From NCBI RefSeq assembly GCF_964030875.1, contig NZ_OZ034981.1, positions 1 through 32,000 on the forward strand: DNA of 32,000 bases, in the 5' to 3' direction. How positions within the stretch are numbered: position 1 is the stretch's first letter; each line of letters begins with the position of its first letter. Made by a program: the position numbers and the translations under genes. The stretch comes from Candidatus Saccharimonadota bacterium (GTDB lineage: Bacteria > Bacteroidota > Bacteroidia > Flavobacteriales > Blattabacteriaceae). The notes beneath the pieces are model-generated. The model ran no database searches. It worked only from the letters and a program-made list of their open reading frames with translations, and was not told the origin of the DNA. Below, in pieces: positions 4,314 to 31,342 of this stretch.

Positions 4314-6021
4314 TGCTGATGACACGAAATATGTTGTAGTTATTTGTCAACAAATCGAGGAATCTGCAAAGATACGTCGAACCGGCATTGCTAAAAGGGA
4401 TCCAGAAGATGTAAAAAAAAAAATTACAGAAGGTCATGCTGTAATAGCTTTTTGTGACGGAATACTTGCTGGATTTAGTTATATAGAAACTTTTCAGGAC
4501 AGACAATTCGTTGCTAATTCTGGTCTTATTGTATTTCCAGAATTTCGTAATAAAGGAGTGGCCAAGCTAATTAAATCAGAAATCTTTCAACTATCTAGAA
4601 AAAAATTTCCTCAGTCTAATATATTCAGTATTACGACTAACATTTCGGTGTTAAAAATGAATATGGACTTGGGTTTCAAACCTGTACCTTTCACAGTACT
4701 ACCCCAATCGGAAGACTTTTGGAAGGGATGTCGAAGTTGTACAAACTATGATATTCTCACTAGACAGAACCGAAAAATGTGTCTATGTAGCGGTCTTTTA
4801 TATGAGACTAGTGAAAAAAAATCTAATAAAAAATTACTTTTTGGGGATAAAATTTTACTTGCTTACAGTGGTGGTCTAGATACCTCTTATTGTTTAAAAT
4901 ACCTAAAACAACAGGGTTATAAGGTGTATACAGCTATCGTAAATACTGGAGGTAGTAGTGAAAAAGAATTAATTGATATAGAAAAAAAGGCTTATGCTAT
5001 AGGAGCCAAATTTCATAGAAATATAGAAGCAAAAAATGATTATTATAAGCATTGTATAAAATATCTGATTTTCGGAAACATTCTACGTAATCAGACTTAT
5101 CCCTTATCAGTAAGTGCCGAAAGAATTTTTCAAGCTATTAAAATAGCGGAATATGCTAATGAAATCAATGCTAAAGCCATAGCTCACGGTAGTACCTGTG
5201 CTGGTAATGACCAGATACGTTTTGATTTAGCCTTTCAAATATTGTGTCCTAATAAAATTATTATAAGCCCGATACGGGATCTTAAACTCTCAAGAAAGGA
5301 GGAAATGGATTATTTACGTGAGCATGGAGTGGACATATTATGGGAAAAAGCGCAATATTCCATGAATAAGGGTCTTTGGGGAACTAGTGTGGGAGGGAAA
5401 GAAACGCTTACTTCTAACCAAAATTTACCAGAAGGAACCTATCCCAACTCTTTACAAGAGTTTAAGCCTAAAAAAATCCAACTAACTTTTGAGAAGGGGG
5501 AATTGATCGCTATCAATGGAGAAGTTACCGATCCAGTGGAAAATATAGTTCGTTTAGAGAGGATTGCTTCTCGTTTTGCTATAGGTCGTGATATTCATGT
5601 AGGTGATACACTTATTGGAATTAAAGGACGTGTAGGATTCGAAGCATCATCAGCATTGATAATTCTCAAGGCTCATCACCTTCTGGAAAAACATGTTCTT
5701 AGTAAATGGCAGATTTATTGGAAAGAACAATTGGGGAATTGGTATGGGATGCTTTTGCACGAAGCGCAATACTTCGATCCGGTTATGCGTGATATTGAAG
5801 CTTTTTTGATGAATTCTCAAGAAAGAGTTAGCGGAATTGTAAGTGTACAGTTGCATCCTTATCGTTTTGAACTTATAGGCATTGAGTCACCTTTTGATCT
5901 TATGCAGACTAAAAAAACAAAATATGGGGAAGAAAATGAGTCCTGTAGTTCTTCAGAAGCTAAAGGATTTATTAAAATATTTGGAACCCCGATGAAAATT
6001 TATCACAGTATTAATCCCTAA
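4288..6021 (+). CDS. argG: Single ORF fusing a GNAT-family N-acyltransferase domain (about aa 1-175) to argininosuccinate synthase (about aa 186-577)
   Basis: The N-terminal part has a GNAT acyl-CoA motif (QFVANSGLIVFPEFRNKGVAKLI). The C-terminal part has the ArgG ATP-pyrophosphatase motif LLAYSGGLDTS plus HGSTCAGNDQIRFD. No stop and no ATG/GTG/TTG lies between the two parts. The ATG at 4288 overlaps the dnaE 3' end by 26 nt. Confidence 0.9.
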   Translation: MKIKVRTTNADDTKYVVVICQQIEESAKIRRTGIAKRDPEDVKKKITEGHAVIAFCDGILAGFSYIETFQDRQFVANSGLIVFPEFRNKGVAKLIKSEIFQLSRKKFPQSNIFSITTNISVLKMNMDLGFKPVPFTVLPQSEDFWKGCRSCTNYDILTRQNRKMCLCSGLLYETSEKKSNKKLLFGDKILLAYSGGLDTSYCLKYLKQQGYKVYTAIVNTGGSSEKELIDIEKKAYAIGAKFHRNIEAKNDYYKHCIKYLIFGNILRNQTYPLSVSAERIFQAIKIAEYANEINAKAIAHGSTCAGNDQIRFDLAFQILCPNKIIISPIRDLKLSRKEEMDYLREHGVDILWEKAQYSMNKGLWGTSVGGKETLTSNQNLPEGTYPNSLQEFKPKKIQLTFEKGELIAINGEVTDPVENIVRLERIASRFAIGRDIHVGDTLIGIKGRVGFEASSALIILKAHHLLEKHVLSKWQIYWKEQLGNWYGMLLHEAQYFDPVMRDIEAFLMNSQERVSGIVSVQLHPYRFELIGIESPFDLMQTKKTKYGEENESCSSSEAKGFIKIFGTPMKIYHSINP

Positions 6022-6989
6022 TGATTAAAATCGGAATCTTAGGTAGCTCCGGATATACCGCTGGTGAACTATTACGGATTTTGTTACATCATCCTAAAGT
6101 CCAGATAAAAAGTGTAGTAAGCAGTACTCAATCTGGTATTGAGGTTTACAAAATTCATACGGATTTACTAAGTGATACTGAATTATGCTTTACTGATCAT
6201 TTGGAGGATGTCGAGGTAGTATTTTTATGTATTGGTCATGGGCATTCTAGAAATGCTGTAAAAAAAATCTCAAAAAATAGTTGCATTATTGATTTAAGTC
6301 ATGATTTTAGGCTTTCAAAAAATGCCAATTTTTCAGGCAGAAACTTTGTATATGGGTTACCAGAATTGCAACGTAAAGCCATTAAAAAAGCAAAAAACAT
6401 TGCTAATCCAGGTTGTTTTGCTACAGCTATAGAACTTCCTTTGTTACCACTAGCTAAAGAAAGATGGCTTGATAACGATATTCATATAAGTGCTATTACA
6501 GGTTCTAGCGGTTCAGGACGTCTATTGAGAGAAAGTAATCATTTCAGTTGGAGAGTAAATAATGTTTCCACTTATAAAGTGTTTACCCATCAGCATTTAA
6601 AAGAAATTAGAGAGGTATTGTTACGATTGTGTCCGAGCTTTAATAAAAAACTCTTTTTTGTCCCCTACAGAGGAAATTTTTCCCGGGGAATATTTGCTAC
6701 GTTATACACATATTGCAAGGCTCCTCTTCAGGAAGTTGAGTTCCTTTATCAAGAATTTTATAAAAAGCATCCTTTTACACATCTTTCTAAAGATCCATTA
6801 TGTCTAAAACAAGTGGTGAATACTAATAAATGTTTATTGCACTTAATGAAAGAGAAAGAACAGTTGATTATCAGTAGTGTTATAGATAATCTGGTTAAAG
6901 GAGCTGCAGGACAAGCGGTTCAGAATATGAATCTGATGTACAATTTGGAAGAAGTTCTGGGTTTACAGATAAAATCGATCGCATTTTGA
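6021..6989 (+). CDS. argC: N-acetyl(acyl)-gamma-glutamyl-phosphate reductase
   Basis: 322 aa. N-terminal Rossmann motif IGILGSSGYTAGELLR and active-site Cys context NPGCFATA. Its start overlaps the argG stop (TAATG). It ends with TGA. Confidence 0.93.
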   Translation: MIKIGILGSSGYTAGELLRILLHHPKVQIKSVVSSTQSGIEVYKIHTDLLSDTELCFTDHLEDVEVVFLCIGHGHSRNAVKKISKNSCIIDLSHDFRLSKNANFSGRNFVYGLPELQRKAIKKAKNIANPGCFATAIELPLLPLAKERWLDNDIHISAITGSSGSGRLLRESNHFSWRVNNVSTYKVFTHQHLKEIREVLLRLCPSFNKKLFFVPYRGNFSRGIFATLYTYCKAPLQEVEFLYQEFYKKHPFTHLSKDPLCLKQVVNTNKCLLHLMKEKEQLIISSVIDNLVKGAAGQAVQNMNLMYNLEEVLGLQIKSIAF

Positions 6990-8125
6990 TATTTGATGTG
7001 TATTCTACAATTCCAATAGAATTAGTAAAAGGTAAAGGAACTTTCCTTTACGATAAGGAAGGAAACAAATATCTAGATTTTTATGGAGGACATGCCGTAA
7101 TCTCTATTGGACATAGCCATCCACATTATGTGGAATCTTTAATAGAACAAATATCACACTTAGGATTTTATTCAAATTCTATTCAAATTCCCCAACAGCA
7201 GTTGCTTGCCGAAAAATTAGTAAAGTTGTCTGGTTATACAGATTATCGTCTTTTTCTTTGTAATTCAGGTGCTGAAGCAGTAGACAATGCTTTAAAAATT
7301 GCATCTTTTCATAACAGAAAAAACAAGATAATTTCATTCAAAAAAGCTTTTCATGGTCGTACTATAGGAGCGTTATCCGTTACAGATAATCCTAAAATAG
7401 TTACTTCTTTTAATGAAAAATTTTATAGCATAATTCTGGATCATAAGGATCAGGAAGGTTTAGAATGTGCTATCAAAAAGGGAGATATTTGTGCAGTAAT
7501 TACCGAAGGTATTCAGGGAGTAGCTGGCATTATAGATCCTGGGGGAGATTTTTTTCTGTTTCTTCAGGAATATTGTCGGAAGTACAATGTTCCTCTTATT
7601 CTAGATGAAATTCAAAGTGGCTATGGTCGCAGTGGCGATTTTTTCGCACATAAATCTGCTGGAATTTCTCCTGATTTAATCGCAGTGGCTAAGGGTATGG
7701 GTAATGGATTTCCTATCGGAGGTGTGCTTATTGCTCCTTATTTCAAAGCTTTTCATGGTATGCTTGGAACTACTTTTGGTGGGAATTATTTGTCTTGTAC
7801 AGCAGCATTGTCTGTTTTAGAAGTTATTAAAAATGAATGTCTGATTGAAAATGTTAGACACATAGGTAATATGCTTATAAAAACATTGCGAGAAATTCCT
7901 CAAATAAAGAGGATTAGTGGTCGGGGCTTGATGTTGGGTTTACATTTTGATTTTCCTGTCTACAACTTAAGAGAGACCTTATTAAAGAGAGAAAAAGTGT
8001 TTGTGGGTACAGCTATACAACCTAATATTTTACGTGTTTTGCCTCCTCTCAGTATATCTAATTATCAGGCTATGTGTTTTGTCCGAAAGTTGAAGAGTGC
8101 TTTAGCTTATCTTGAAAATGAATGA
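6986..8125 (+). CDS. argD: Acetyl/succinyl-ornithine aminotransferase (class III PLP aminotransferase)
   Basis: 379 aa with motifs YLDFYGGHAVISIGHSHP, LILDEIQSGYGRSG and the PLP-lysine context IAVAKGMGNGFPIGG. The track start is a TTG that overlaps the argC TGA by 4 nt, so the exact start is uncertain. Confidence 0.9.
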   Translation: MIFDVYSTIPIELVKGKGTFLYDKEGNKYLDFYGGHAVISIGHSHPHYVESLIEQISHLGFYSNSIQIPQQQLLAEKLVKLSGYTDYRLFLCNSGAEAVDNALKIASFHNRKNKIISFKKAFHGRTIGALSVTDNPKIVTSFNEKFYSIILDHKDQEGLECAIKKGDICAVITEGIQGVAGIIDPGGDFFLFLQEYCRKYNVPLILDEIQSGYGRSGDFFAHKSAGISPDLIAVAKGMGNGFPIGGVLIAPYFKAFHGMLGTTFGGNYLSCTAALSVLEVIKNECLIENVRHIGNMLIKTLREIPQIKRISGRGLMLGLHFDFPVYNLRETLLKREKVFVGTAIQPNILRVLPPLSISNYQAMCFVRKLKSALAYLENE

Positions 8126-9200
8126 TCCTATCGCTCGTTTAATCCTTCAAAAGGATGATATAGAATATATTGGACATCTTTTTGGAGCACCTGTTTCTTC
8201 TTCTGGAGAAGTTGTTTTTAATACTTCCATGACCGGTTATACAGAAAGCCTTACTGATCCTTCTTATAAAGGACAGTTATTGGTCTATACCTCTCCGATT
8301 ATAGGTAACTACGGAATACCCAATATCATGGAAAAGAGATCAGATTTTTCGGAATCCGAAAACATACATATTAACGGGTTAATCATTTCTGATTATTCTC
8401 ATCATCCTTACCATTGGAACATGAGATATAGTCTTTCGTATTGGTTGAAACAGAATGGTGTTCCAGGAATCTATGGAATAGATACTCGTGCATTGACCCA
8501 AAAAATTCGGGAAGAAGGGACGATGTTAGGAAAAATTATCATAAATCATGATATACCATTTTATGATCCTAATCAGGAAAATCTAGCATCTAAGGTGTGT
8601 ATTAATGAAAAAACTATATATGGACAGGGAAAATACAAGGTGTTGCTGGTTGATTTAGGAGTAAAGAACAATATATTGCGCTGTTTGCTTAACAGAAATT
8701 GCCAGATAATACGTGTGCCATGGGATTATGATTTTTCCAAAGAAGACTATGATGGGATTTTGCTTTCTAATGGACCAGGTAATCCTAAGACTTATCAGAA
8801 GGTTATAAAACACGTGGAGGATGCCCTTAAAGATAATCGTCCTATCTGTGGAATTTGTCTTGGAAATCAATTAATTGGTCTCGCTGCAGGAGTGAATACC
8901 TTTAAACTAAAATATGGGCATCGTGGCTATAACCAACCAGTTTTGCTAGAAGGTACCTATAAGGCATACATAACTTCACAAAATCATGGATACGTCCTTG
9001 ACGTCAAAATTTTGCCTAAAAACTGGAAAATTTTATTTAAAAATCTCAACGATGGATCTTGTGAGGGATTAATACATGAAAATAAACCTTTCTTTTCAGT
9101 GCAATTTCATCCAGAAGCCTCAGGAGGACCTATAGATACCGAATTTTTATTCGATTGGTTTATAGAATGTATGCATACATACAAGAAATTATATAGATGA
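8118..9200 (+). CDS. carA: Carbamoyl-phosphate synthase small (glutamine amidotransferase) subunit
   Basis: Motifs TGYTESLTDPSYKGQ, catalytic Cys ICGICLGNQL and QFHPEASGGP. I prefer the ATG at 8118 over the track's TTG at 8112. It overlaps the argD stop. Confidence 0.93.
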   Translation: MNDPIARLILQKDDIEYIGHLFGAPVSSSGEVVFNTSMTGYTESLTDPSYKGQLLVYTSPIIGNYGIPNIMEKRSDFSESENIHINGLIISDYSHHPYHWNMRYSLSYWLKQNGVPGIYGIDTRALTQKIREEGTMLGKIIINHDIPFYDPNQENLASKVCINEKTIYGQGKYKVLLVDLGVKNNILRCLLNRNCQIIRVPWDYDFSKEDYDGILLSNGPGNPKTYQKVIKHVEDALKDNRPICGICLGNQLIGLAAGVNTFKLKYGHRGYNQPVLLEGTYKAYITSQNHGYVLDVKILPKNWKILFKNLNDGSCEGLIHENKPFFSVQFHPEASGGPIDTEFLFDWFIECMHTYKKLYR

Positions 9201-12200
9201 AAAAAATTCTTGTTATTGGTTCTGGGGCTTTGAAAATTGGAGAGGCCGGAGAATTTGATTATTCAGGAACACAAGCCTTAAAAGCAATTAAAGAAGAGGG
9301 AATAGAGACTATTTTAGTGAATCCTAATATCGCTACGGTGCAAACCTCTGAAGGTATAGCCGATCAAATTTATTTTCTTCCGATTTCCCAAAAATTTATT
9401 AAAAAAGTCATAGAAAAAGAAAAACCTAGTGGACTTTTGTTATCCTTCGGAGGACAAACAGCATTAAATTGTGGCGTGAAACTTTTTGAAAAAGGTGTAT
9501 TGAAAAAACATGTTATAAAAGTTTTAGGTACTCCTATAGAGTCTATTATTGCTAGTGAAGATCGAGATCTTTTTCGAGATAAACTCAATACTATGAATAT
9601 CAAAACGGCTCGTGGTATAGTGGTACATTCTCTGGAAGAAGCCTTTTCGGCCTCTGAAGAAATCGGCTTTCCTCTAATTATAAGAACTTCTTATGCCTTA
9701 GGAGGACTTAGTAGTGGATTTGCTCACGATAAAAAGGAATTGGCAACATTGATAGACATAGCTTTATCACATTCTTCACAAATCCTTATAGAAGAATCCC
9801 TGAAAGGTTGGAAGGAAATAGAATATGAAGTCATGTGTGACCGATACGGAAATTGTATTACGGTATGCAATATGGAAAATTTCGACCCCATTGGGATACA
9901 TACAGGAGACAGCATAGTAGTAGCTCCTTCACAAACTCTTACTAATTCTGAATATCAGAAACTTCGCACATTTTCTCTGTCTATTGCCCGTGCATTCGGA
10001 ATAATAGGAGAATGTAATGTGCAGTTCGCTTTATCACCAAATTCTGAGGATTATCGTCTTATTGAAATAAATGCAAGACTTTCTCGTTCAAGTGCTTTAG
10101 CTTCTAAAGCTACGGGGTATCCAATAGCCTTTATAGCAGCTAAACTAGCTTTAGGCTATGGATTACATGAATTAAAGAATTATGTAACCCAAACTACTTC
10201 TGCTTTTTTTGAACCGTCTCTTGATTATGTAGTGTGCAAATTTCCTCGTTGGGATTTAAAAAAATTCTACCGATCAGATAAAAAAATTGACAGTAGTATG
10301 AAAAGTGTGGGTGAAGTTATGTCAATAGGAGGATCTTTTGAGGAGGCGTTCCAGAAAGGATTACGGATGCTTGATATAGGATTAGAAGGATTCATCAATC
10401 CTAAAAAAAAATCTTTATATGACACTCTTGAAAAACGTCTTATAATTCCTACCGATCATAGAGTAGAAGCACTTGAAGATGCTTTTGATGAAGGCTACAC
10501 AGCAGAAAAACTTTATGATCTGACACGTATTGATCTTTGGTTTCTTTACAAGCTTCGCAATATTCATAACACAAAAAAAATACTATCACGGTACAAAAAG
10601 TCTGAAGATTTACCTAAAAATATTTTTTATTTAGCCAAAAAGCAAGGATATTCAGATCGACAAATAGGAGCTATTCTTAGCCCAGACGTACATATGTCTA
10701 TATCTTCTTCTATGGTTCGTCAGAGACGAAAAACTATAAAAATTTTTCCAAACGTACGTCGTATAGACACTTTATCAGCTGAATATCCAGCATATACCAA
10801 CTACTTGTATATGAGTTATCATGCTTATCGTCATGATATTGATTACGAAGGGGATGGGCGGTCAGTAGTAGTTTTAGGATCTGGTGTATATCGTATAGGT
10901 AGTAGTGTAGAATTTGATTGGTGTTGTGTGAACACATTAAAGGTTCTTCATTCTGAAGGTTATCGATCGATAATGATCAACTGTAATCCTGAAACTGTCA
11001 GTACAGATTTTGATGAATGTGATAGATTATATTTTGAAGAACTCACTCTAGAACGTGTGCTAGATATTCTAGAACTAGAAACCCCGAAAGGGACGATTGT
11101 ATCTATGGGAGGACAAATTTCCAACAATCTGGCATTACCACTCCATAAAAATAAGCAAAGAATTTTAGGAAGCTTAGCCACTTCTATAGATGAAGTAGAA
11201 GACCGTTATAAGTTTTCCAAAGCTTTGGATATACTAGGCATAGAACAACCTATGTGGAAAGAATTTTCTAATCTGAACGATATTCATCCCTTTATTAGAG
11301 AGGTCGGATATCCGATATTAATACGACCATCGTATGTACTATCAGGTTCAGGAATGAACGTAATTTTTAATGTAGAAGAACTTAGATACTTTTTTGATAA
11401 ATTGGAGACTATCTCGTCTGAACATTCAGTAGTGATAAGTAAATTTATAGAAAATGCTAAAGAAATCGAACTCGATGCTGTGGCCCATCAAGGGTCTCTT
11501 ATTTATCATGCCGTATCCGAGCATATAGAATTTGCTGGATTACATTCAGGAGATGCTACTTTAGTATATCCTCCGCAAAATATTTACTTCTCTACGTTAC
11601 AAGAAATAGAACGGATTTCTAAAAAAATTGCACGATATTTTCATATTTCAGGACCTTTTAATATACAGTTTATTTCGATAAATAACCGAATTAAAGTAAT
11701 AGAGTGCAATTTACGAGCTTCCAGAAGTTTTCCTTTTATTTCTAAAGTATCTGGATTTAATCTAATCCGATTAGCTACTGAAGTAATGTTAGGAAAACTC
11801 ACGAATCCTTGTGGAATTTTTTTTTCTTTTAATTATATAGGTGTAAAAGTTTCGTACTTCTCCTTTTCACGGATTCCAGGTACAGATCCTGTCCTAGGAG
11901 TAGATATGGTTTCTACAGGTGAAGTAGGTTGTTTGGGAAACAATTTTCATGAGGCACTCATAAAAGCTATGTTGGCCGCTGGCTATAGCATACCTATCAA
12001 GCATATTTTAATTTCAGGAGAAATTTCTTCTTTCAAAGAAGATTTTATTAATACTATTAAACTATTGGTGTATAAGGGATATAAACTGTTTTCTACAGAG
12101 GATATATATCCATTTATGATGGATTATGGTTTAACTACAAAGCTATTGTACTGGCCAGGTGTGCATAATTTCCCAAATGTCCTCGATTATATACGAAAGA

Positions 12201-12499
12201 AAAAAATTGATTTCATTATCAATATTCCTAAGAACAAATATTCCGAAATAGATAATAACTATACTATAAGACGCTCAGCAGTAGATTTCAATATTCCACT
12301 TTTAACTAATACTAGTTTAGCTAAAGCCTTTATCGTGGCTTTCTGTAAAGAAGAACCAGAAGAACTAACTATAGCAGAATGGAAAAGTTATATGAAACGA
12401 TTTTTTAGTGTTCAAGATATTCCTAATGTACCTGTTTTGGTAAAGGAGGCATTATCTCTTAAAAAAGCTCCTTATATAGAACTTGTAAAAAAAAAATAA
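9197..12499 (+). CDS. carB: Carbamoyl-phosphate synthase large subunit. The CarB-homologous part ends near 12391, and the last 35 codons of the ORF are the N-terminus of argF' read in the same frame.
   Basis: 1100-aa ORF with two ATP-grasp halves (NPNIATVQTS..., IEINARLSRSSALASKATGYPIA; second half VIECNLRASRSFPFISKVSG) and an MGS-like C-terminal domain. ATGA overlap with carA. No stop codon before the ATG at 12392. Confidence 0.95.
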   Translation: MKKILVIGSGALKIGEAGEFDYSGTQALKAIKEEGIETILVNPNIATVQTSEGIADQIYFLPISQKFIKKVIEKEKPSGLLLSFGGQTALNCGVKLFEKGVLKKHVIKVLGTPIESIIASEDRDLFRDKLNTMNIKTARGIVVHSLEEAFSASEEIGFPLIIRTSYALGGLSSGFAHDKKELATLIDIALSHSSQILIEESLKGWKEIEYEVMCDRYGNCITVCNMENFDPIGIHTGDSIVVAPSQTLTNSEYQKLRTFSLSIARAFGIIGECNVQFALSPNSEDYRLIEINARLSRSSALASKATGYPIAFIAAKLALGYGLHELKNYVTQTTSAFFEPSLDYVVCKFPRWDLKKFYRSDKKIDSSMKSVGEVMSIGGSFEEAFQKGLRMLDIGLEGFINPKKKSLYDTLEKRLIIPTDHRVEALEDAFDEGYTAEKLYDLTRIDLWFLYKLRNIHNTKKILSRYKKSEDLPKNIFYLAKKQGYSDRQIGAILSPDVHMSISSSMVRQRRKTIKIFPNVRRIDTLSAEYPAYTNYLYMSYHAYRHDIDYEGDGRSVVVLGSGVYRIGSSVEFDWCCVNTLKVLHSEGYRSIMINCNPETVSTDFDECDRLYFEELTLERVLDILELETPKGTIVSMGGQISNNLALPLHKNKQRILGSLATSIDEVEDRYKFSKALDILGIEQPMWKEFSNLNDIHPFIREVGYPILIRPSYVLSGSGMNVIFNVEELRYFFDKLETISSEHSVVISKFIENAKEIELDAVAHQGSLIYHAVSEHIEFAGLHSGDATLVYPPQNIYFSTLQEIERISKKIARYFHISGPFNIQFISINNRIKVIECNLRASRSFPFISKVSGFNLIRLATEVMLGKLTNPCGIFFSFNYIGVKVSYFSFSRIPGTDPVLGVDMVSTGEVGCLGNNFHEALIKAMLAAGYSIPIKHILISGEISSFKEDFINTIKLLVYKGYKLFSTEDIYPFMMDYGLTTKLLYWPGVHNFPNVLDYIRKKKIDFIINIPKNKYSEIDNNYTIRRSAVDFNIPLLTNTSLAKAFIVAFCKEEPEELTIAEWKSYMKRFFSVQDIPNVPVLVKEALSLKKAPYIELVKKK

Positions 12500-13355
12500 G
12501 ATTATAGGATTAGTCTTTTTTAATCCAAGCTTGAGAACCCGTTTGAGCAGTCAAAAAGCTGCTTTTCACCTAGGTTGCGATACTTGGACACTAAATATAG
12601 ATCAGGATTCTTGGAAAATAGAGATGAATGATGGTTCCGTTATGGAACGTCACTCCCAAGAACATCTAAAAGAAGCCGTTGGAGTGATGAGTTTATATTG
12701 CGATATATTAGGTGTTCGAACCTTTCCTGGACTAAAAAATCGAGATTCTGATTATCAAGAAATTCTTTTTAATCATATAGAAAATTATTCTCACGTTCCT
12801 ATAGTTAATTTAGAAAGTGCTACACGTCACCCCTTGCAATCTTTAGCTGATGCTATGACTATTGAAGAGTGTCGTGTTCCTGGAAAACCTATAAAAGTAG
12901 TACTTAGTTGGGCCCCTCATCCTAAAGCTTTACCACATTCAGTGCCTAATTCTTTTATAGAATGGATTTCCAAATTACCTAATATTGATCTAATAATTAC
13001 TCACCCTATTGGATATGAGCTTGATAAAGAAATTACTAAAAATACAAATATTCTTTATAATCAAGAAGAAGCCTTCAAGGATGCAGATTTTATTTATGCA
13101 AAAAATTGGAGCAGTTATACCTATTACGGTAAGGTTCTATGTCATGACACTAGATGGATGATTACTTGTGATAAGATGTCCCTTACTAATAAGGCAAAAT
13201 TTATGCATTGCCTACCCATTAGACGCAATGTAGTAGCGGTAGACGCTGTTCTAGATTCCTATATTTCTTTGATTTTTCAAGAGGCTGAAAATCGTATATT
13301 CGCTTCTAAGGCTATTTTCAAAAGAATATTGAACGCATTATCATGTTGCATATAG
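12392..13355 (+). CDS. argF: N-acetyl/N-succinyl-ornithine carbamoyltransferase (argF'-type), interrupted by a frameshift in an A10 tract at 12487-12496. It is either a pseudogene or is rescued by slippage.
   Basis: The downstream ORF 12531..13355 begins at the carbamoyl-phosphate motif (S)LRTRLS and keeps TRHPLQSLAD and FMHCLPIRRN. The missing N-terminus (MKRFFSVQDIPNVPVLVKEALSLKKAPYIELVKK) is encoded from ATG 12392 in the carB frame. Deleting one A joins them into 963 nt / 320 aa. Confidence 0.85.
12487..12496 (+). repeat. A10 homopolymer at the argF' frameshift site
   Basis: Counted directly: gt-aaaaaaaaaa-taag. TAA at 12497-12499 terminates the carB/argF' N-terminal frame immediately after the run. 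Confidence 0.95.
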
Positions 13356-14182: not shown

Positions 14183-14506
14183 ATGATACAAGAAATAAAA
14201 GATAACAATTTGGCATCCCTGATGCTTGCTTCTAAAAAACTATCTATAGTATATTTCTGGGCTCCTTGGTGTAACTCATGTAAATCTTTAGCTCCATTCA
14301 TAGAAGAGATATCAGAAAAGTATGAGGGAAAAGTTTTAATAATAAAAATCAATGTAGATGAGAATACAAAAACTGTTTATGAACATGGAATAAAAAGTAT
14401 TCCTACAGTAATATGTTTTAAAAATGGAAAAGAAATATGCAGAAAAATTGTAGCGAATTCTCAAAATACTTTAACTAAGGAATTAGATCAATTAATTTGT
14501 AAGTAG
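14183..14506 (+). CDS. trxA: Thioredoxin with a non-canonical active site WCNSC
   Basis: Thioredoxin-fold signature: FWAPWCNSCKSLAP, then IKINVDEN and SIPTVICFKNGKE (cis-Pro region). The ATG at 14183 gives 107 aa, the normal Trx size. The track start at 14129 adds 18 unsupported residues. Confidence 0.85.
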   Translation: MIQEIKDNNLASLMLASKKLSIVYFWAPWCNSCKSLAPFIEEISEKYEGKVLIIKINVDENTKTVYEHGIKSIPTVICFKNGKEICRKIVANSQNTLTKELDQLICK

Positions 14507-14580
14507 GGTCTGGTAGTTCAGCTGGTTAGAATACGTGCCTGTCACGCACGAGGTCGCGGGTTCAAGTCCCGTCCAGACCG
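14507..14580 (+). tRNA. tRNA-Asp (anticodon GTC)
   Basis: Manual cloverleaf, 74 nt. Acceptor ggtctgg/ccagacc; D stem gttc/gaat; anticodon stem cgtgc/gcacg with loop ctGTCac; variable aggtc; T arm gcggg-ttcaagt-cccgt; discriminator g. CCA is not encoded. Confidence 0.95.
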
Positions 14581-14749
14581 CTAATCGTCATTGATAGTTG
14601 TGAAATAAAGACTACTACTATCATTAACCCTTAACCCTGCATGGGTTCTCTTTTCCTACAGTACTAACAGTATTTCGAAAAGTATGGAAAGGTCTGCTTC
14701 AAAACAATCTTCACACACTTATAATCAAGAAGAACTCGTGCTATAATAG

Positions 14750-15725
14750 ATGCAAAACGTAGAAAGTTTCTAATTCTACTGATGACCACAAAATATAGGA
14801 CAACAAGTCGTTTTAAGCGGGTGTCTTCTAGATCTCGGTGCAGTAATATTCATTTATTTGAGAGATAGTTATGGAATAACACAATTTATTTTTTCTAATC
14901 CATTACTAGTACGTGAGTTTGTTGTTCTAATTTATGGAAAAGATCATCTAAGTAAAAATCCGACTGGGTACATTGAAGTGCTTAATTCGCATGAAATACC
15001 GATAAATCCTGCGTAAATGACTATTCTCTTTCCAAGGCTCAAGGCTCCCCTCTAATCTTTTTGCTTCTCGTATCCAGGATGGATATTTGTTCCCTCAATC
15101 TCCTCAGTCTCCTCAGTCTCCTCAGTCCTTTATAGGTATATAAGATTGCTATATGAAGATTTTCGTTCATATCGCCAACCTTAATTTACCTGTGAAATAT
15201 TTTTCGTCGTACGGTCAGATATTTGATTTCTTTTTGAAGAACTCATAGTATATCTTTTCGATATACTCCTTTCCTTCGTATTCCCTAAACCCATCTCTGT
15301 AATTGCAATTATACAAGAAAACAACTTTATGAACTAGTAGAGTGGGTAATACGGACCCAAATTGGAGCGAAAGAACTTATCTGGGTAAAATGTCTTACAG
15401 ATTAAAATCATCAGTAGATAAATTCTTTAGTCAAGTACTTTCTGGAAAAACTAAAGAGACTAGGGTTCCGTTGTTCTCCACTACCACTAAAACCGTAAAA
15501 GCATAATGGATATTATCATCCAGCTCCTAAAGAGGAAGACTATCCTTTGTTAGTGATTATAGGTGGAGGTTATAAACTATTATGGTGCTCCTATTGCTTT
15601 AGGATTAGATAGAGCAGTATTATTCGGTGAGGAAAATATAATCTGACAAAAAATCATTAAGGTCGAGATATTCTGATAGATAGCCCATACACAAGAACTA
15701 GGTAGACCTAAATGGGACCCCTAGT
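14750..15725 (+). pseudogene. aspS: Decayed aspartyl-tRNA synthetase gene, about 55% of normal length, with multiple stops and frameshifts
   Basis: There are no ORFs across 14581-15784, but scattered in-order AspRS-like segments are present:
- MQNVESF*FY**PQNIGQQVVLSGCLLDLGAVIFIYLRDSYGITQFIFSNP (from 14750; compare E. coli [47 protein letters not shown])
- NPTGYIEVL
- PQSPQ motif region (15093-15131)
- CY/EDFRSYRQP*FT (15146-15190; compare CFRDEDLRADRQPEFT)
- GAKELIWVK (about 15364)
- HPAPKEED
- GAPIALGLDRAVLFGEENI (about 15585-15640; compare GLAFGLDRL..LTGTDNIRDVIAFPK). Confidence 0.85.
15096..15128 (+). repeat. Tandem 9-bp repeat (tctcctcag x3) inside the aspS relic
   Basis: caa tct cct cag tct cct cag tct cct cag tcc = QSPQSPQSPQS. 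The conserved class IIb motif is a single PQSPQ. Confidence 0.9.
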
Positions 15726-15784
15726 TTAAACATAATAGACGCAGGGATCTTTTTCTTGAAGCTCTTGTAAAAGAATTATAAGTT

Positions 15785-18196
15785 ATGAAAGTTCTCAAGT
15801 TTGGTGGAACTTCTGTTGGAAATCCTCATGCTATAGAACAAGTATGTGAGATCATAAAAAATAAGAATTTACAAGATCGTTGTGCTATAATAGTTTCTGC
15901 TGTCGGAAACACCACTGATATGCTAGTCAAATGTGGTCAACTTGCCTCTCATAAAAATGAGAAATATAGGGATTTTATTTCAGAAATAGAAATACAACAT
16001 TTGAACATTATACGAGCATTGTTTCCTTACCAAAGTCATTTGATTATAAAAAAACGTCTGAATTTTTTAGAAATTTTTTGTGACAGTATTTTTCATGTCA
16101 TGGAACTTTCAAAACGTTCCCTTGATAGGATTATGAGTTTGGGAGAGCTCATTTCTTCTTATCTTTTTTATGAAAAAATAAAGGAATACGGGTTTCAAAC
16201 AATTTGGAAAGATAGTCAAGAACTCATAGTTACTGATGAACGATATGGTTGTGCGCAGGTAGATATTATAAAGAGTTATAAAAATATTCAATCTTTTTTT
16301 TCTATAGAATCTGCTCCATATGTAATATTCCCAGGATTTATTGCATCTTCTCCTCGTAAAGAAGTTACAACGCTAGGACGTGGAGGATCAGATTATAGCG
16401 CTGCTATTATTGCAGCAGCTTTAAAAGCAGAAGTATTGGAAATATGGACTGATGTAAGCGGTATCATGACAGCTGATCCACGGATAGTTTTGCAAGCTTT
16501 TACGATTGAAAATCTGTTTTATGAAGAAGCTATAGAGCTTTCCCATTTCGGAGCTAAGGTTATTTATCCACCTACGTTACACCCAGTCATCGAAAAAAAA
16601 ATTACTATTTGGGTTCAAAATACTTTTTCGACCTCAGAAAAAGGCACAAGAATAAATAACGCCCCATGTTTTAAACATTCAGTTACAGGAATTTCAGGGA
16701 AAAAAAATCTTACAATGATCACCCTTAAAGGGATGATTAATATATTGAGTTATTTAAAACGTCTATTTACAGTTTTGTCTCGTGAAAAAATGAATGTACT
16801 CTTTTTTAGTACTTCAGAGCATTCCATTATAATGGGTATAGAAGAATATGAGGGAATGCAAATAAAAAATAGTATAAACAATGAATTTTCTCAAGAGATT
16901 GATAAGAAGTATTTATTTCCAGTATTAGTAGAGCAAGATTTATCTATTATAACTGTTATTGGAGATAATACAAAAAATATGCATCGTACTTCTGCTAGAA
17001 TGTTTATCACATTATCCAAAAACAATATTTACATACGGTATATAGCATATAATGTGACTAAAAAAAATATGTCAGCAGTCATAAAGAACAGTGATTTTAA
17101 AAAGGCATTAAATGTCCTTCATGACACTTTTTTTGAAATACCTCCTAAGCAAATCAATCTTTTTGTTGCCGGTATAGGAAAAGTAGGCCGAAAACTTTTA
17201 GAACATATTTCCATCCAAAAAACATCCCTTATAAAAGAACTTCATATTCAAGTGATGGGTCTTTGCAATAGTAAAACTATGTATTTTGAAGAGCAAGGTA
17301 TCGATGTGAAAAACTGTAAAAAAAATCTCGAATATGGTAATAGGATGATACTTCACAGATTTATTGAAAAAATTCATCTAATGAATATGCATAATAGTAT
17401 TTTTATAGATACTACCGATAGTCAAGATGTAGCGAGAACTTATGATAAGTTATTTGTAAAAGGAATTGGTGTCATTACTTGTAATAAAATCGCGTGTTCT
17501 TCTTCTTACAAAGATTATAAAAATCTTAAAAAGATAGCACGATATTTTAAAGTACCTTTTTTTTTCGAAACAAATGTAGGGGCAGGATTACCTATCATTA
17601 GTACTCTGAATGATTTATTGAATAGTGGAGATAAAATTCATTTAATAGAGGCTGTTTTGTCAGGTAGTATTAATTTTATTTTTAATCACTTCAAGTCAGG
17701 TCGTACTTTTTCAGAAACGGTTAGAGAAGCACAGAAAAGAGGATATACTGAACCTGATCCTCGCATTGATTTAAGTGGCATAGATGTAATGAGAAAAATA
17801 CTCATTTTAGTTAGAGAATGTGGAGACTCAATGGAGTTGTCCCAAATTATACAAAAACCTTTCCTCCCTGAGGAATGTGTAAAAGCTAATAACGTTGAAT
17901 CCTTTTATGAAAAACTATCCCAATATGAAAACTATTTCGTAAGACTTCGTGACGAAGCTCAAAATAAAGGGAAAAAATTCCGATTTATGGCAAAATATGA
18001 AAATGGCTACGCTTATGTGGAACTGAAATCCATCGGACCTGAACATCCTTTTTATCAATTGGAAGGGGATGATAATATTATTCTTTACAAGACACAGCGT
18101 TACTACGAACAACCCCTTATTATTAAGGGTGCCGGTGCTGGTGCTGAAGTGACTGCTGCAGGGATTTTATCAGATATAAGAAAGGCGTCTAGATAA
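15785..18196 (+). CDS. thrA: Bifunctional aspartokinase / homoserine dehydrogenase
   Basis: 803 aa. N-terminal aspartokinase motifs (MKVLKFGGTSVG, LGRGGSDYSAAIIAAAL, IWTDVSGIMTADPR) and C-terminal homoserine dehydrogenase motifs (FVAGIGKVGRKLL, GAGLPIISTL, GYTEPDPRIDLSG). Confidence 0.95.
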   Translation: MKVLKFGGTSVGNPHAIEQVCEIIKNKNLQDRCAIIVSAVGNTTDMLVKCGQLASHKNEKYRDFISEIEIQHLNIIRALFPYQSHLIIKKRLNFLEIFCDSIFHVMELSKRSLDRIMSLGELISSYLFYEKIKEYGFQTIWKDSQELIVTDERYGCAQVDIIKSYKNIQSFFSIESAPYVIFPGFIASSPRKEVTTLGRGGSDYSAAIIAAALKAEVLEIWTDVSGIMTADPRIVLQAFTIENLFYEEAIELSHFGAKVIYPPTLHPVIEKKITIWVQNTFSTSEKGTRINNAPCFKHSVTGISGKKNLTMITLKGMINILSYLKRLFTVLSREKMNVLFFSTSEHSIIMGIEEYEGMQIKNSINNEFSQEIDKKYLFPVLVEQDLSIITVIGDNTKNMHRTSARMFITLSKNNIYIRYIAYNVTKKNMSAVIKNSDFKKALNVLHDTFFEIPPKQINLFVAGIGKVGRKLLEHISIQKTSLIKELHIQVMGLCNSKTMYFEEQGIDVKNCKKNLEYGNRMILHRFIEKIHLMNMHNSIFIDTTDSQDVARTYDKLFVKGIGVITCNKIACSSSYKDYKNLKKIARYFKVPFFFETNVGAGLPIISTLNDLLNSGDKIHLIEAVLSGSINFIFNHFKSGRTFSETVREAQKRGYTEPDPRIDLSGIDVMRKILILVRECGDSMELSQIIQKPFLPEECVKANNVESFYEKLSQYENYFVRLRDEAQNKGKKFRFMAKYENGYAYVELKSIGPEHPFYQLEGDDNIILYKTQRYYEQPLIIKGAGAGAEVTAAGILSDIRKASR

Positions 18197-27400: not shown

Positions 27401-27536
27401 GGAGTTCATCATGAGAAAGTGAACTAATAGTTGACTCAAACTTTTTTATTTTTGTTAAAAATTGTTTAGCGTTATGAATATCTCTTTCATTCTTATTTAC
27501 GAAGAAACTTTTTAGTATTTTTTCACGAAAATTCAT
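24498..27536 (-). CDS. secA: Preprotein translocase ATPase SecA
   Basis: DEAD-motor motifs (MATGEGKTLVATLP, IIDEIDSVLIDDARTPLVISG, TNMAGRGTDIKL, RGRSGRQGDPGSSQFF). Candidate ATG starts lie at 27560, 27542 and 27536. I prefer 27536 (MNFREKILKSFF...) by N-terminal similarity, but the start is uncertain. Confidence 0.95.
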   Translation of the reverse strand: MNFREKILKSFFVNKNERDIHNAKQFLTKIKKFESTISSLSHDELRNKTILFKKILKKKTKKIYNNIISLHKQADKEKDVDVKENLYEIIDSKKKRLYNLEEKILLEILPEAFAVIKETARRFKENVEIHVQITPFDQILYYKKKYVVLQKNIAIWKHIWDANGKPIVWDMVHYDTQLIGGVILHQGKIAEMATGEGKTLVATLPIYLNSLTGRGIHIVTISDYLAKRDAAWMAPLMEFHGLSVDCINNYFPNTYLRRKAYAADITYGTSNEFVFDYLRDNIACSIEEIVQRELNYAIIDEIDSVLIDDARTPLVISGAISQETYNEFNILKPKVENIIQQQRIQLNKTFNEAKKLIELGDPKNGVFKLLQVYRGFPKSKPLIKFINEENIRLLLKNTEYMQDKDLHKIDDNLYFIISEKNNTIELTDKGINFLSNFFIVRDIITDIVQLEYKKLPKKKENKQKEELLKEFFLKSKRLHMFNQLLKAYTFFEKNIDYIVLDGSVKIIDEQTGRIMEGRRYSDVLHQALEAKENVQIESSTQTFATITLQNYFRMYKKLAGMTGTAATESGEFGQIYKLDVVTIPPHKPVQRKDYQNLVFKTKREKYNAIINEILKISQKEKRPILVGTTSIEVSELLSRTLKLKKIHHNVLNAKLHKEEANIIAKAGNKGVITIATNMAGRGTDIKLSPEAKSAGGLAILGTECHDSRRIDKQLRGRSGRQGDPGSSQFFISLEDNLMRLFGSYRIAKVMDKLGHKEGDIIQHPLITRSIEQAQKKIEEKNFSLRKRLLEYDDVINKQREVIYRKRKNALLGERLSIDIATMLYYTIQNLVSSNKELNHFEHLQYEWVQNFASESLIKYEDFTSIKKKEIVNSLYHDALNSLQLRQEHTAAIFFTIIENIYKAQYKLIQVPITDGVRNIYAVLDIKKAYESKGKSFIRECERATVLSLIDEKWKEHLKEIDELRDSVQNAVYEQKDPLLIYKVEAFNLFQKTMNEINRETISFLFQANFSLP

Positions 27537-27747
27537 CTTCATTGAAAAAGAAATCCTCATTATTGGGATAATCTATCCATATTTCTTCTATAGATTCATA
27601 AGTATCACCGTCATCTTCAAGTTGTTGAAGATTCTCTATTACCTCCAAAGGAGCTCCACTCCGCATGGCATAATCTATAAGTTCATCTTTATTCGCTGGC
27701 CAAGGAGCATCCTCAAGATATGAGGCTAATTCTAACGTCCAGTACAT
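27523..27747 (-). CDS. Small acidic DUF2795-family protein (74 aa) overlapping the secA start
   Basis: MYWTLELASYLEDAPWPANKDELIDYAMRSGAPLEVIENLQQLEDDGDTYESIEEI matches my memory of the DUF2795 pattern (L..YL....(Y/W)PA.K.EL...A...GAP..V...L..L.....Y.S..E). ATG at 27747. Its TGA stop lies inside the secA 5' end. Confidence 0.8.
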   Translation of the reverse strand: MYWTLELASYLEDAPWPANKDELIDYAMRSGAPLEVIENLQQLEDDGDTYESIEEIWIDYPNNEDFFFNEDEFS

Positions 27748-27771
27748 CAAATAATTTTCTGATCAGAGAAG

Positions 27772-27793
27772 TAGTTAATAAATAGTTAATAAA
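27772..27793. repeat. 11-bp tandem duplication (tagttaataaa x2) in the spacer upstream of the DUF2795-secA unit
   Basis: Read directly: tagttaataaa tagttaataaa taaa. Confidence 0.85.
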
Positions 27794-31312: not shown

Positions 31313-31342
31313 CTTTTGTAGAGATTATAAAATATAGTTTCT

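What the first reader, a model, noticed from the sequence alone, without database searches (positions are those of the whole stretch)
14581..15784. aspS (aspartyl-tRNA synthetase) is a shrunken pseudogene immediately downstream of tRNA-Asp
This 1.2-kb ORF-free stretch is the only sizeable non-coding region in the window. It contains, in the correct order, recognisable AspRS segments:
- the N-terminal OB-fold region
- the PQSPQ motif
- the motif-2 region FRDED..RQPEFT, here EDFRSYRQP*FT
- the GAKGL..IKV insertion-domain segment
- the HHPF-like HPAP segment
- the motif-3 GLDR region

These are interrupted by three stops within the first 12 codons (14771, 14780, 14783), several frame changes and large deletions. 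About 976 bp remain, versus roughly 1.75 kb for an intact gene. A TATAAT sits right upstream of the old ATG (14742-14747).

Loss of an aminoacyl-tRNA synthetase while its cognate tRNA gene next door stays pristine implies charging by an imported or partner-encoded enzyme, unless another copy exists elsewhere. Such aaRS losses are known only from the most reduced symbionts.
Basis: partly seen in the sequence, partly recalled or inferred. Interest (0 to 1): 0.65.

Follow-up and report, generated by a model that had tools for sequence, protein, structure and literature searches.

The report
Dead aspartyl-tRNA synthetase gene relic
The 1.2-kb gap after tRNA-Asp is the decayed remains of the aspartyl-tRNA synthetase gene in the scale-insect symbiont Walczuchella; the loss of this enzyme is already published, so the finding is real but mostly ordinary.

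Summary
Window 14582-15784 holds no ORF longer than 54 aa. It aligns collinearly, across several frames, with bacterial AspRS: chain score 445 against 130±11 for shuffles, and 125 for the reverse strand.

The window is 100% identical to CP170564.1, Walczuchella ICPU from Icerya purchasi (Choi et al. 2025).

I fetched the same locus from five other Walczuchella genomes. All six carry a relic between tRNA-Asp and thrA. All six share the same TAA inside motif 2 (RQP*FT) and the same 9-bp loss of QID. These genomes span the deepest split among sequenced Walczuchella, so aspS died before that split. It has since lost different pieces in each lineage and shows no sign of constraint.

tRNA-Asp stays intact: 21 of 21 stem pairs are standard in all six genomes.

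The authors' gene table lists no AspRS gene in ICPU, so a second copy is excluded. The 2014 genome paper already reported AspRS as missing.

Who charges tRNA-Asp was not tested. Host supply is my inference, because the loss is ancestral while the co-symbionts differ between hosts.

Novelty is low. The only additions are an unannotated relic and the dating of its inactivation.

The parts
14183..14506 (+). trxA (thioredoxin), the last intact gene upstream
   Evidence: NCBIfam TIGR01068, E=1.8e-28. Called as a 107-aa gene in CP170564.1.
14507..14580 (+). tRNA-Asp (GTC), intact. It has discriminator G73, C38, a G10-U25 pair and a G2-C71 pair. No CCA is encoded; the gene is followed by CTAA.
   Evidence: ARAGORN. 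Rfam RF00005, 68.4 bits. All 21 stem pairs are standard in six Walczuchella genomes, and the four stem substitutions all keep pairing.
14581..14616 (+). tRNA 3' trailer. Most of it is shared with the other genomes (CTAATCGTCA..TTGTGAAATAAAGAC).
   Evidence: Alignments. Window 14507-14616 (the tRNA plus this trailer) is 89% identical to LLAX.
14750..14788 (+). This is probably the former 5' leader or the damaged N-terminus, not the ancestral start.
   Evidence: Translation. The ATG and TATAAT are present only in ICPU and ICSE. CRMU and CRGE read ATT, and the sequence is absent in LLAX and DRPI. DRPI keeps ..KTHHCVELRKKNI.., which ICPU has lost through a deletion of about 19 nt near 14786.
14789..15013 (+). 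aspS relic: remnant of the N-terminal OB-fold anticodon-binding domain (QNIGQQVVLSG..GAVIFIYLRDSYGITQFIF..LVREFVV..SKNPTGYIEVL), ending in a TAA
   Evidence: tblastn, E=1.7e-9 to P0001 residues 13-98. PDB 6wom AspRS, E=7e-4. Chain alignment.
15066..15131 (+). aspS relic: SRIQDGYLFPQSPQ.. (the ..PSR..G.FYALPQSPQ region). It contains a 9-bp tandem repeat, CCTCAGTCT x3.9, at 15093-15127.
   Evidence: The repeat copy number differs between genomes, from 1 to 5.
15155..15259 (+). aspS relic: motif 2 region, EDFRSYRQP*FT|CEIFFV... It has a TAA at 15182-15184 in place of the Glu codon of RQPEFT, and the next three codons (QID) are missing.
   Evidence: tblastn, E=7e-6. Chain alignment. The TAA and the QID deletion are invariant in all six genomes.
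15304..15473 (+). aspS relic: remnant of the GAD insertion domain (YTRKQLYELVEWVIRTQIGAKELIWVKC..KSSVDKFFSQ..), spread over two frames
   Evidence: tblastn, E=3e-9 to P0003. 19 of 33 and 9 of 10 residues identical.
15499..15570 (+). aspS relic: HHPF region (KHNGYYHPAPKEEDYPLLV..IGGG)
   Evidence: Chain alignment. The orthologous DRPI relic reads YHAMHHP|ATKEEDYPLL.
15581..15725 (+). aspS relic: motif 3 (YGAPIALGLDRAVLFGEENI), the C-terminal KNH*GRDILIDSP, and the decayed end of the gene
   Evidence: tblastn, E=0.004. Chain alignment. The C-terminus was placed by comparison with LLAX and DRPI, which read ..IDSPSKLNKTQLSELGFI*.
15750..15784 (+). True intergenic block upstream of thrA, nearly invariant in six genomes. 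Presumed thrA promoter or translation-initiation region.
   Evidence: Only 2 of 35 columns vary in any of the six genomes. Function is inferred.
15785..18196 (+). thrA (bifunctional aspartate kinase / homoserine dehydrogenase I), intact, followed by thrB and thrC
   Evidence: NCBIfam NF006959, E=1.3e-257. thrB and thrC.

Best explanation
The stretch is the non-functional remnant of aspS, the gene for bacterial-type class IIb aspartyl-tRNA synthetase with a GAD insertion domain. The genome is that of the flavobacterial endosymbiont Candidatus Walczuchella from the cottony cushion scale Icerya purchasi (strain ICPU).

**Shown here.**
- The gene was inactivated before the last common ancestor of the sequenced Walczuchella lineages.
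- It has since decayed without detectable constraint, mostly through small and large deletions and repeat slippage.
- About 55% of the original length is left in this genome, and other lineages have kept different pieces.
- It makes no enzyme.
- The neighbouring tRNA-Asp gene is kept under purifying selection.

**Inferred, not shown.**
- Asp-tRNA(Asp) must be made by an enzyme that the symbiont does not encode.
- The most likely source is a host AspRS, mitochondrial or cytosolic, acting in or delivered to the symbiont. The loss is ancestral, whereas the co-resident bacteria differ from host to host.
- The same logic applies to 3' CCA addition. The tRNA gene does not encode CCA, and no CCA-adding enzyme is listed for this genome.
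For: **Identity as aspS.**
- tblastn hits below E=0.01 are collinear and confined to 14789-15699.
- Chain score is 445, against 130±11 for shuffles and 125 for the reverse strand.
- A stitched translation hits only AspRS proteins. PDB AspRS 6wom gives E=7e-4.
- A 41-aa ORF in the DRPI relic has a precomputed PF00152 hit.

**It is dead.**
- No ORF is longer than 54 aa.
- TAA and TGA stops lie inside the aligned segments, there are at least five frame changes, and about 800 bp are missing.
- RF2 (prfB) is intact in the window, so UGA is still a stop. Several of the stops are TAA in any case.

**Source genome.** The window is 12,939/12,939 identical to CP170564.1, which is 288,943 bp and is Walczuchella ICPU.

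**Ancestral inactivation.**
- A relic lies at the same locus in ICPU, ICSE, CRMU, CRGE, LLAX and DRPI, with chain scores 232-623.
- The TAA in RQP*FT and the QID deletion are invariant in all six.
- The six span both subclades, Drosicha+Llaveia and Crypticerya+Icerya.

**No detectable constraint.**
- Within the Icerya/Crypticerya clade, relic identity is 0.927-0.962 for pairs that include ICPU, against 0.966-0.978 at 4-fold sites in the flanking genes. Those pairs differ by 13-16 indel events.
- Different pieces survive in different lineages.
- The 9-bp repeat varies from 1 to 5 copies.

**No second copy.**
- The authors' gene table shows no AspRS CDS in ICPU, and only two fragments in CRMU.
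- The 2014 paper says AspRS is missing from the complete LLAX genome.

**tRNA-Asp is maintained.**

**Host supply.**
- Co-symbionts differ among host species.
- Host aspartate-tRNA ligase is over-expressed in the Sulcia and Nasuia bacteriocytes of a leafhopper (PMC6294904).
- No CCA-adding enzyme is listed for ICPU.
Against: - Nothing contradicts the pseudogene call.
- Pfam profiles do not detect the raw frame translations. This is expected for short, broken pieces.
- No expression, proteomic or tRNA-charging data for Icerya/Walczuchella were available, so the source of AspRS activity is untested.
- A series of successively replaced co-symbionts could also have supplied the enzyme.
- I did not scan the whole ICPU chromosome myself. 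Absence of a second copy rests on the published inventory.
- The relic changes somewhat faster than 4-fold sites. Part of that may be misalignment around indels.
Confidence: 0.93

Rival explanations
1. Redundant-copy decay. The genome keeps another functional aspS elsewhere, so this relic has no physiological consequence.
For: I could not scan the whole 288,943-bp chromosome with the tools.
Against: - The published gene-content table for ICPU has no aspartate--tRNA ligase CDS.
- The complete LLAX genome is reported to lack AspRS.
- The genomes are reported as collinear.
- The search with the stitched relic found no close intact homologue. The best hit was 38% identical over 27% of the query.
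Confidence: 0.02
2. The gene is functional and only looks broken, because of sequencing or assembly errors, programmed frameshifting, or a reassigned stop codon.
For: Homopolymer frameshifts in endosymbiont genes can be tolerated, as the 2014 paper notes.
Against: - About 800 bp of coding sequence are missing, including most of motif 1 and the region between the HHPF motif and motif 3.
- The stops include TAA codons inside motif 2 and near the C-terminus.
- The same lesions appear in six independently assembled genomes.
- Read coverage for ICPU is 1,523x.
- RF2 is intact.
Confidence: 0.01
3. The AspRS activity comes from a co-resident bacterium rather than from the host. In I. purchasi the candidates are an Enterobacter-related symbiont or Wolbachia. 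The enzyme or charged tRNA would be exchanged between partners.
For: - Co-symbionts with genomes of 1.2-4.8 Mb are present in all the hosts studied.
- Tremblaya is thought to rely on its inner symbiont Moranella for aaRS.
- The tRNA keeps the elements I recall as E. coli-type AspRS identity elements: G73, the GUC anticodon, C38, G10 and G2-C71. The sequence is; the list of identity elements is from my own knowledge.
Against: - The inactivation is ancestral to all six lineages, whereas the co-symbionts belong to different genera in different hosts and were acquired independently.
- In Drosicha the co-symbiont lives in different cells from Walczuchella.
- No mechanism for protein transfer between separate bacteria is known in this system.
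Confidence: 0.12
4. The relic DNA is retained because part of it has been taken over for another role. Examples would be a promoter or leader for thrABC, a processing signal for tRNA-Asp, or a small RNA.
For: - The relic lies on the same strand as, and between, expressed genes.
- The 35 nt before the thrA ATG are nearly invariant in six genomes, and the tRNA trailer is partly conserved.
- A relic of 1.0-1.65 kb persists in every lineage.
Against: - The conserved 35 nt lie downstream of the old aspS stop. They are ordinary intergenic sequence, not relic.
- Inside the relic, divergence is at or above that of 4-fold sites, indels are frequent, and different parts are deleted in different lineages.
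- No Rfam family other than tRNA reaches its gathering score in the window.
- Promoter- and terminator-like sites are at chance level.
Confidence: 0.05

Closest known systems
Published loss of AspRS in Candidatus Walczuchella monophlebidarum (Rosas-Perez et al. 2014, PMC3971599; Choi et al. 2025, PMC12188211 and its preprint Table S2)
   Same: - Same genus. The window is from one of the very genomes of the 2025 paper.
- AspRS is reported missing.
- The genus is described as unusually pseudogene-rich, with decay of many aaRS genes.
   Different: - Those papers score aspS as absent, except for two CDS fragments counted in CRMU.
- Here a recognisable relic is shown at the same locus in six genomes.
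- Shared lesions date the inactivation to before the deepest split.
aaRS gene loss in other tiny insect symbionts, with host compensation: Karelsulcia/Sulcia, Nasuia, Hodgkinia, Tremblaya (PMC6294904, PMC6581868)
   Same: - Bacteroidota or proteobacterial nutritional symbionts of 0.1-0.3 Mb lack several aaRS genes yet keep the cognate tRNA genes.
- The host aspartate-tRNA ligase is strongly over-expressed in leafhopper bacteriocytes.
- CCA addition also lacks a symbiont-encoded enzyme in Hodgkinia.
   Different: - In those genomes the lost genes have usually vanished without trace.
- Here a relic of about 1 kb persists.
- No host expression or charging data exist for the Icerya system.
Bacterial-type aspartyl-tRNA synthetase (class IIb; Pfam PF01336 + PF00152 + PF02938; e.g. 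E. coli AspRS 1C0A, Elizabethkingia AspRS 6WOM)
   Same: The domain order and signature motifs are recognisable in the correct order: OB fold, PQSPQ, motif 2 (RQPEFT), GAD insertion, HHPF, motif 3 (GLDR).
   Different: - There is no open reading frame.
- A nonsense codon and a 3-codon deletion lie in motif 2.
- Motif 1 is largely deleted.
- About 45% of the gene is gone.
- It is a pseudogene, not a member enzyme.

Membership tests
Bacterial-type AspRS gene (aspS), by descent | Significant sequence similarity to AspRS, specific to this locus and strand | tested here: met
   - tblastn E=1.7e-9 to 0.004 for four regions, all in 14789-15699.
- Chain score 445, against shuffles 130±11 and reverse strand 125.
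- The only database hits are AspRS.
Bacterial-type AspRS gene (aspS), by descent | Collinear domain order: OB fold, catalytic core motifs 1-3, and the GAD insertion between motifs 2 and 3 | tested here: met
   Segments map to reference residues 13-96, 194-200, 222-259, 325-402, 440-483, 520-545 and 553-565, in order. Motif 1 is not recognisable in this genome but is present in the DRPI relic as VETPILGKST.
Functional AspRS enzyme | Uninterrupted ORF of about 580 aa with an intact motif 2 (FRDEDLRADRQPEFTQID) and motif 3 | tested here: not met
   - Longest ORF is 54 aa.
- TAA replaces the Glu codon of RQPEFT, and QID is deleted.
- There are multiple frame changes and about 800 bp are missing.
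Unitary pseudogene (vertically inherited, decaying without constraint) | Orthologous relics at the same locus in related genomes, with shared inactivating lesions | tested here: met
   Six genomes have a relic between tRNA-Asp and thrA. The TAA and the 9-bp deletion are invariant.
Unitary pseudogene (vertically inherited, decaying without constraint) | No purifying selection: divergence at or above a neutral proxy, frequent indels, lineage-specific deletions | tested here: met
   For pairs that include ICPU, relic identity is 0.927-0.962 against 0.966-0.978 at 4-fold sites, with 13-16 indel events per pair. Different pieces are retained in each lineage. The 9-bp repeat varies in copy number.
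Unitary pseudogene (vertically inherited, decaying without constraint) | No intact paralogue in the same genome | tested here: inconclusive
   I did not scan the whole chromosome. The published inventory for ICPU shows no AspRS CDS, and LLAX is reported to lack it.
Host-complemented aaRS loss (organelle-like dependence) | The cognate tRNA is retained and under purifying selection | tested here: met
   tRNA-Asp scores 68.4 bits. All 21 pairs are standard in six genomes, and every stem change keeps pairing.
Host-complemented aaRS loss (organelle-like dependence) | A host-encoded AspRS is present in or over-expressed in bacteriocytes and charges the symbiont tRNA | not testable with these tools
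   No host transcriptome, proteome or charging assay was available. The only support is a precedent in a leafhopper (PMC6294904).

The most novel reading that the evidence does not exclude
With AspRS gone since before the Walczuchella radiation, and with no stable co-symbiont, a retained class IIb paralogue of the symbiont itself might charge tRNA-Asp. The candidates are AsnRS and LysRS. Both are kept in all seven genomes and both are flagged for positive selection in the authors' table. One of them may have broadened its specificity to aspartylate tRNA-Asp, in place of an imported host enzyme. This would be a natural case of one synthetase serving two amino acids after genome reduction.
Probability: 0.03. 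Interest if true: 0.8.

Novelty: already known. Interest (0 to 1): 0.15.

Why it matters
As a gene loss it adds nothing new. AspRS was reported missing from Walczuchella in 2014, and the 2025 study of this very genome describes widespread aaRS decay.

What this analysis adds is modest.
- The "missing" gene is still physically present as an unannotated relic of about 1 kb in the six genomes I examined.
- It was killed once, before the deepest split of the genus. The evidence is the shared TAA and the shared 9-bp deletion in motif 2.
- It has survived since then while decaying differently in each lineage.

That gives a well-dated neutral marker for measuring deletion and substitution dynamics in a slowly evolving symbiont.

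It also sharpens an existing question. The loss is older than any of the present co-symbionts, and this genome also has no listed CCA-adding enzyme. tRNA-Asp maturation and charging therefore most likely depend on host proteins. This is directly testable in Icerya purchasi.

Tried and rejected
- **Pfam on the three raw frame translations, stops replaced by X.** No AspRS hit. The pieces are too short and broken, so I switched to tblastn and a frameshift-tolerant chain alignment.
- **Exact look-up of the window's ThrA and ArgB.** Nothing came back, although ThrB did. This seems to be a quirk of the index, because the DNA is identical to CP170564.1.
- **The single genome-contig scan.** It returned only the LLAX genome. 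The other genomes had to be reached through the members of the ThrA cluster.
- **Global MAFFT of ICPU against LLAX or DRPI relics.** It gives misleadingly low identity of 0.59-0.68, because the lineages kept different pieces. Local blocks are about 77-95% identical. I therefore used only the within-clade pairs for the neutrality test.
- **TATAAT and the upstream ATG as the old promoter and start.** Rejected, for these reasons:
  - TATAAT is at chance frequency.
  - Promoter-like sites are at chance level.
  - The scan assumes sigma-70 hexamers, and from my own knowledge Bacteroidota promoters use a different consensus.
  - The motif is specific to the Icerya genomes.
- **The terminator-like hairpin at 14633-14647.** One was found against 0.8 expected, and it is deleted in LLAX. 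Not pursued.
- **Invariant blocks inside or upstream of the relic** (for example AAGAAGAACTCGTGCT and ATCTCGGTGCAGTAATATTCATT). I considered them as possible functional elements. Runs of that length are not clearly beyond expectation at about 90% neutral identity.
- **Supplementary files of the journal version.** They are not held. The preprint's table was used instead.
Full report
**1. What is in the sequence.**
- Between tRNA-Asp (14507-14580, + strand) and an intact thrA (15785-18196) lie 1,204 bases with no ORF of 60 codons or more. The longest ORF is 54 codons.
- This is the only large non-coding stretch in the window. The next candidate, 27561-27928, turned out to hold a small DUF2795 gene.

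**2. Is the similarity to AspRS more than chance?** Yes.
- The N-terminal piece alone hits the Elizabethkingia AspRS structure 6wom at E=7e-4.
- A stitched translation, searched against 5.8 billion proteins, returned seven hits. All are AspRS fragments carrying AspRS Pfam domains (PF01336, PF02938 and PF00152 between them). The best E-value is 3.8e-7.
- I ran tblastn of E. coli AspRS (taken from L002) and those seven proteins against the whole 32-kb window. Hits below E=0.01 occur only in 14789-15699, in the right order and in changing frames.
- A chain alignment that tolerates frameshifts and deletions, against a 585-aa composite flavobacterial AspRS, scores 445. Three hundred dinucleotide-preserving shuffles give 130±11 (maximum 171). 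The reverse strand gives 125.
- Pfam profiles on the raw frames see nothing, which reflects how short the surviving pieces are.
- The surviving pieces cover the following:
  - the OB fold
  - the PQSPQ region
  - motif 2
  - part of the GAD insertion domain
  - the HHPF region
  - motif 3 (IALGLDR, 7 of 7 residues identical)
  - the C-terminal G.D.LIDSP
- Most of motif 1, the segment between motif 2 and the GAD domain, and the segment between HHPF and motif 3 are gone. About 940-976 bp remain of about 1,755.

**3. Where the window comes from.**
- The thrA protein located the complete genome of Candidatus Walczuchella monophlebidarum LLAX (CP006873.1) at 93% protein identity.
- The thrB protein then located CP170564.1, which is 288,943 bp. 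The window is identical to it at 12,939 of 12,939 bases.
- That size identifies Walczuchella ICPU from Icerya purchasi, one of six genomes published by Choi et al. 2025 (PMC12188211, Table 1).
- The gene order in the window is as follows: dnaE, argG, argC, argD, carA, carB, argF', argB, trxA, tRNA-Asp, the aspS relic, thrA, thrB, thrC, clpB, prfB, secA, a DUF2795 gene, metE, fmt, tRNA-Met, dnaN.

**4. Comparison with sister lineages.**
- Through the members of the ThrA cluster I fetched the same locus from DRPI, CRGE, ICSE and a CRMU-type assembly, in addition to LLAX.
- All six genomes have a relic between tRNA-Asp and thrA. The spacers are 1,033-1,650 nt, and the DRPI figure includes a 98-N gap. 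Chain scores are 232-623. For LLAX the score is 232 against 117±11 for shuffles.
- Every genome reads CGC CAA CCT TAA TT. in motif 2, that is R-Q-P-stop where AspRS has RQPEFT. In every genome the next three codons (QID) are missing.
- According to Choi et al. the genus splits first into Drosicha+Llaveia and Crypticerya+Icerya. My six genomes span that split. The gene was therefore already dead in their common ancestor.
- Since then the lineages have lost different parts:
  - DRPI and LLAX keep DKYF, GAIRIH, IAFP and the C-terminal ..QLSEL, which ICPU has lost.
  - ICPU keeps the GAD piece and IALGLDR, which LLAX has lost.

**5. Is the relic under any constraint?**
- Within the Icerya/Crypticerya clade, identity in aligned relic columns is 0.927-0.962 for pairs that include ICPU. 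Identity at 4-fold degenerate sites of argB, thrA, thrB and thrC is 0.966-0.978. Each of those pairs differs by 13-16 indel events.
- So the relic changes at least as fast as the best available neutral proxy.
- The PQSPQ codons form a natural 9-bp direct repeat. It has become a variable tandem array with these copy numbers: LLAX 1, ICSE 2, DRPI 2, CRGE 3, ICPU 4, CRMU 5.
- Relic GC is 0.35, against 0.21 at 4-fold sites. Decay so far has been mainly by deletion, not by compositional drift. This fits the low overall divergence: 4-fold identity is 0.88-0.92 across the deepest split.
- Only the 35 nt directly upstream of the thrA ATG (15750-15784) are nearly invariant. By comparison with the LLAX and DRPI C-termini, they lie downstream of the old aspS stop. 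They are the real intergenic region and presumably thrA's own control region.

**6.
- TATAAT occurs 62 times in the window against 66.7 expected.
- Sigma-70-like sites number 10 against 9.8 expected.
- The TATAAT and ATG at 14742-14752 sit in or beside a 7-nt insertion shared only by ICPU and ICSE. CRMU and CRGE read ATT there, and LLAX and DRPI lack the segment.
- DRPI preserves the N-terminus ..KTHHCVELRKKNI... This places the ancestral start near window 14779-14786, and ICPU has a deletion of about 19 nt there.
- The "three early stops" are therefore sequence facts. They lie at or before the ancestral start and are not the primary lesions.

**7. Is there another aspS?**
- I could not scan the whole chromosome.
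- The authors' gene-content table (preprint Table S2) orders the genomes LLAX, DRPI, DRCO, ICPU, ICSE, CRMU, CRGE. Its aspartate--tRNA ligase row is empty for every genome except CRMU.
- CRMU has two CDS fragments. They probably correspond to the two small ORFs called inside the CRMU relic; I did not check this.
- The 2014 genome paper states that the tRNA synthetase for aspartate is missing from LLAX (PMC3971599).
- The same table shows that ICPU also lacks argS, hisS and any CCA-adding enzyme. It lists asnS, lysS, gltX and most other aaRS genes as present.

**8. The tRNA.**
- tRNA-Asp is a canonical 74-nt cloverleaf (68.4 bits).
- Across six genomes only five columns vary. Four are in stems, and all keep a standard pair (GC to GU, CG to UG, GU to AU). 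All 21 pairs are standard in every genome.
- It carries G73, the GUC anticodon, C38, G10-U25 and G2-C71. From my own knowledge these are the known identity elements for bacterial AspRS, and most are shared with eukaryotic AspRS.
- CCA is not encoded; the gene is followed by CTAA.
- The tRNA is thus being maintained for use although its synthetase is gone.

**9. How it most likely works.**
- Shown: the relic is dead DNA, inherited from a single ancient inactivation, and no AspRS is listed for this genome.
- Inferred: Asp-tRNA(Asp) is produced by an enzyme from outside the symbiont.
- I favour a host enzyme for three reasons:
  - The loss predates the split of all the sampled lineages, whereas their co-symbionts belong to different genera (Enterobacter-related, Sodalis-like, Arsenophonus, Serratia, Cedecea-related, Wolbachia) and were acquired independently.
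  - In Drosicha the co-symbiont sits in different cells.
  - In a leafhopper the host aspartate-tRNA ligase is 16- to 270-fold over-expressed in the bacteriocytes of Sulcia and Nasuia (PMC6294904).
- Supply by a co-symbiont, or a broadened specificity of the symbiont's own AsnRS or LysRS, cannot be excluded.

**10. Known or new?**
- The loss of AspRS in this genus and the pseudogene-rich state of these genomes are published.
- aaRS loss with retained tRNAs is a well-described feature of tiny insect symbionts.
- New here, in a small way:
  - A relic is recognised in the six genomes I examined, whereas the published table scores the gene as absent.
  - There was a single ancestral inactivation event.
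  - The relic has since decayed differently in each lineage.
- I rate the finding as correct, already known in substance, and of low interest.

Noticed in passing
L004 (Walczuchella DRPI, CP170567.1) 1338-1535: Directly after tRNA-Asp, the last 13 nt of the tRNA plus trailer (GTCCAGACCGCTA) are repeated in tandem. There are at least three copies on each side of a 98-N gap in a genome described as complete. The array is absent from the window and the other genomes.
   Followed up: partly
window 15093-15127: The PQSPQ codons of the dead aspS have become a 9-bp variable-number tandem repeat. Copy numbers are ICPU 4, CRMU 5, CRGE 3, ICSE 2, DRPI 2 and LLAX 1. This is a clean example of slippage once selection is lifted.
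   Followed up: yes
window 15750-15784: The 35 nt before the thrA start codon are almost invariant in six genomes, with only 2 variable columns. That is far more conserved than the adjoining relic. Presumably it is the thrA promoter or translation-initiation region.
   Followed up: partly
window 14580-14584, and preprint Table S2 of Choi et al.: tRNA-Asp has no encoded CCA (G73 is followed by CTAA). The authors' table lists no CCA-adding enzyme for ICPU, and argS and hisS are also absent. tRNA maturation as well as charging would therefore need outside help.
   Followed up: partly
preprint Table S2 against PMC3971599: The 2014 paper says the synthetases for Asn and Ala are missing from LLAX. 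The 2025 re-annotation lists asnS and alaS as present in LLAX, with asnS flagged for positive selection. The published inventories disagree.
   Followed up: no
window 6-770: The 1,435-aa dnaE ORF carries an N-terminal RNase_T / epsilon-like 3'-5' exonuclease domain (PF00929, E=7e-13). The ORF continues upstream of the window start, so polymerase and proofreading domains appear fused.
   Followed up: partly
window 4288-6021: The argG ORF is 577 aa. Argininosuccinate synthase begins at about residue 187. The N-terminal extension gives only sub-threshold GNAT acetyltransferase hits (E about 1e-3). It may be a fused or decaying acetyltransferase.
   Followed up: partly
window 12531-13355: The N-acetylornithine carbamoyltransferase ORF (274 aa) starts at about position 50 of the OTCace_N profile. 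It is shorter than the 290-aa versions in LLAX and DRPI, so it may be truncated at the N-terminus.
   Followed up: no
L001 (LLAX) 1877-2557 and 3654-6840, against window 6986-8125 and 9197-12499: argD and carB are intact in the window (379 and 1,100 aa). In LLAX argD is partly deleted and carB is split into 406- and 564-aa ORFs. LLAX also has no ORF of 60 aa or more where the window has trxA. These look like lineage-specific pseudogenes.
   Followed up: partly
window 27523-27750 (- strand): A small conserved DUF2795 gene (75 aa, PF11387, E=1.8e-19) lies between secA and metE. The LLAX version is a longer ORF of 114 aa.
   Followed up: partly
window 31340-32000: After tRNA-Met (31239-31313) an ORF that looks like the DNA polymerase III beta subunit (dnaN) starts and runs off the end of the window. 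The identification is by eye from the translation only.
   Followed up: no
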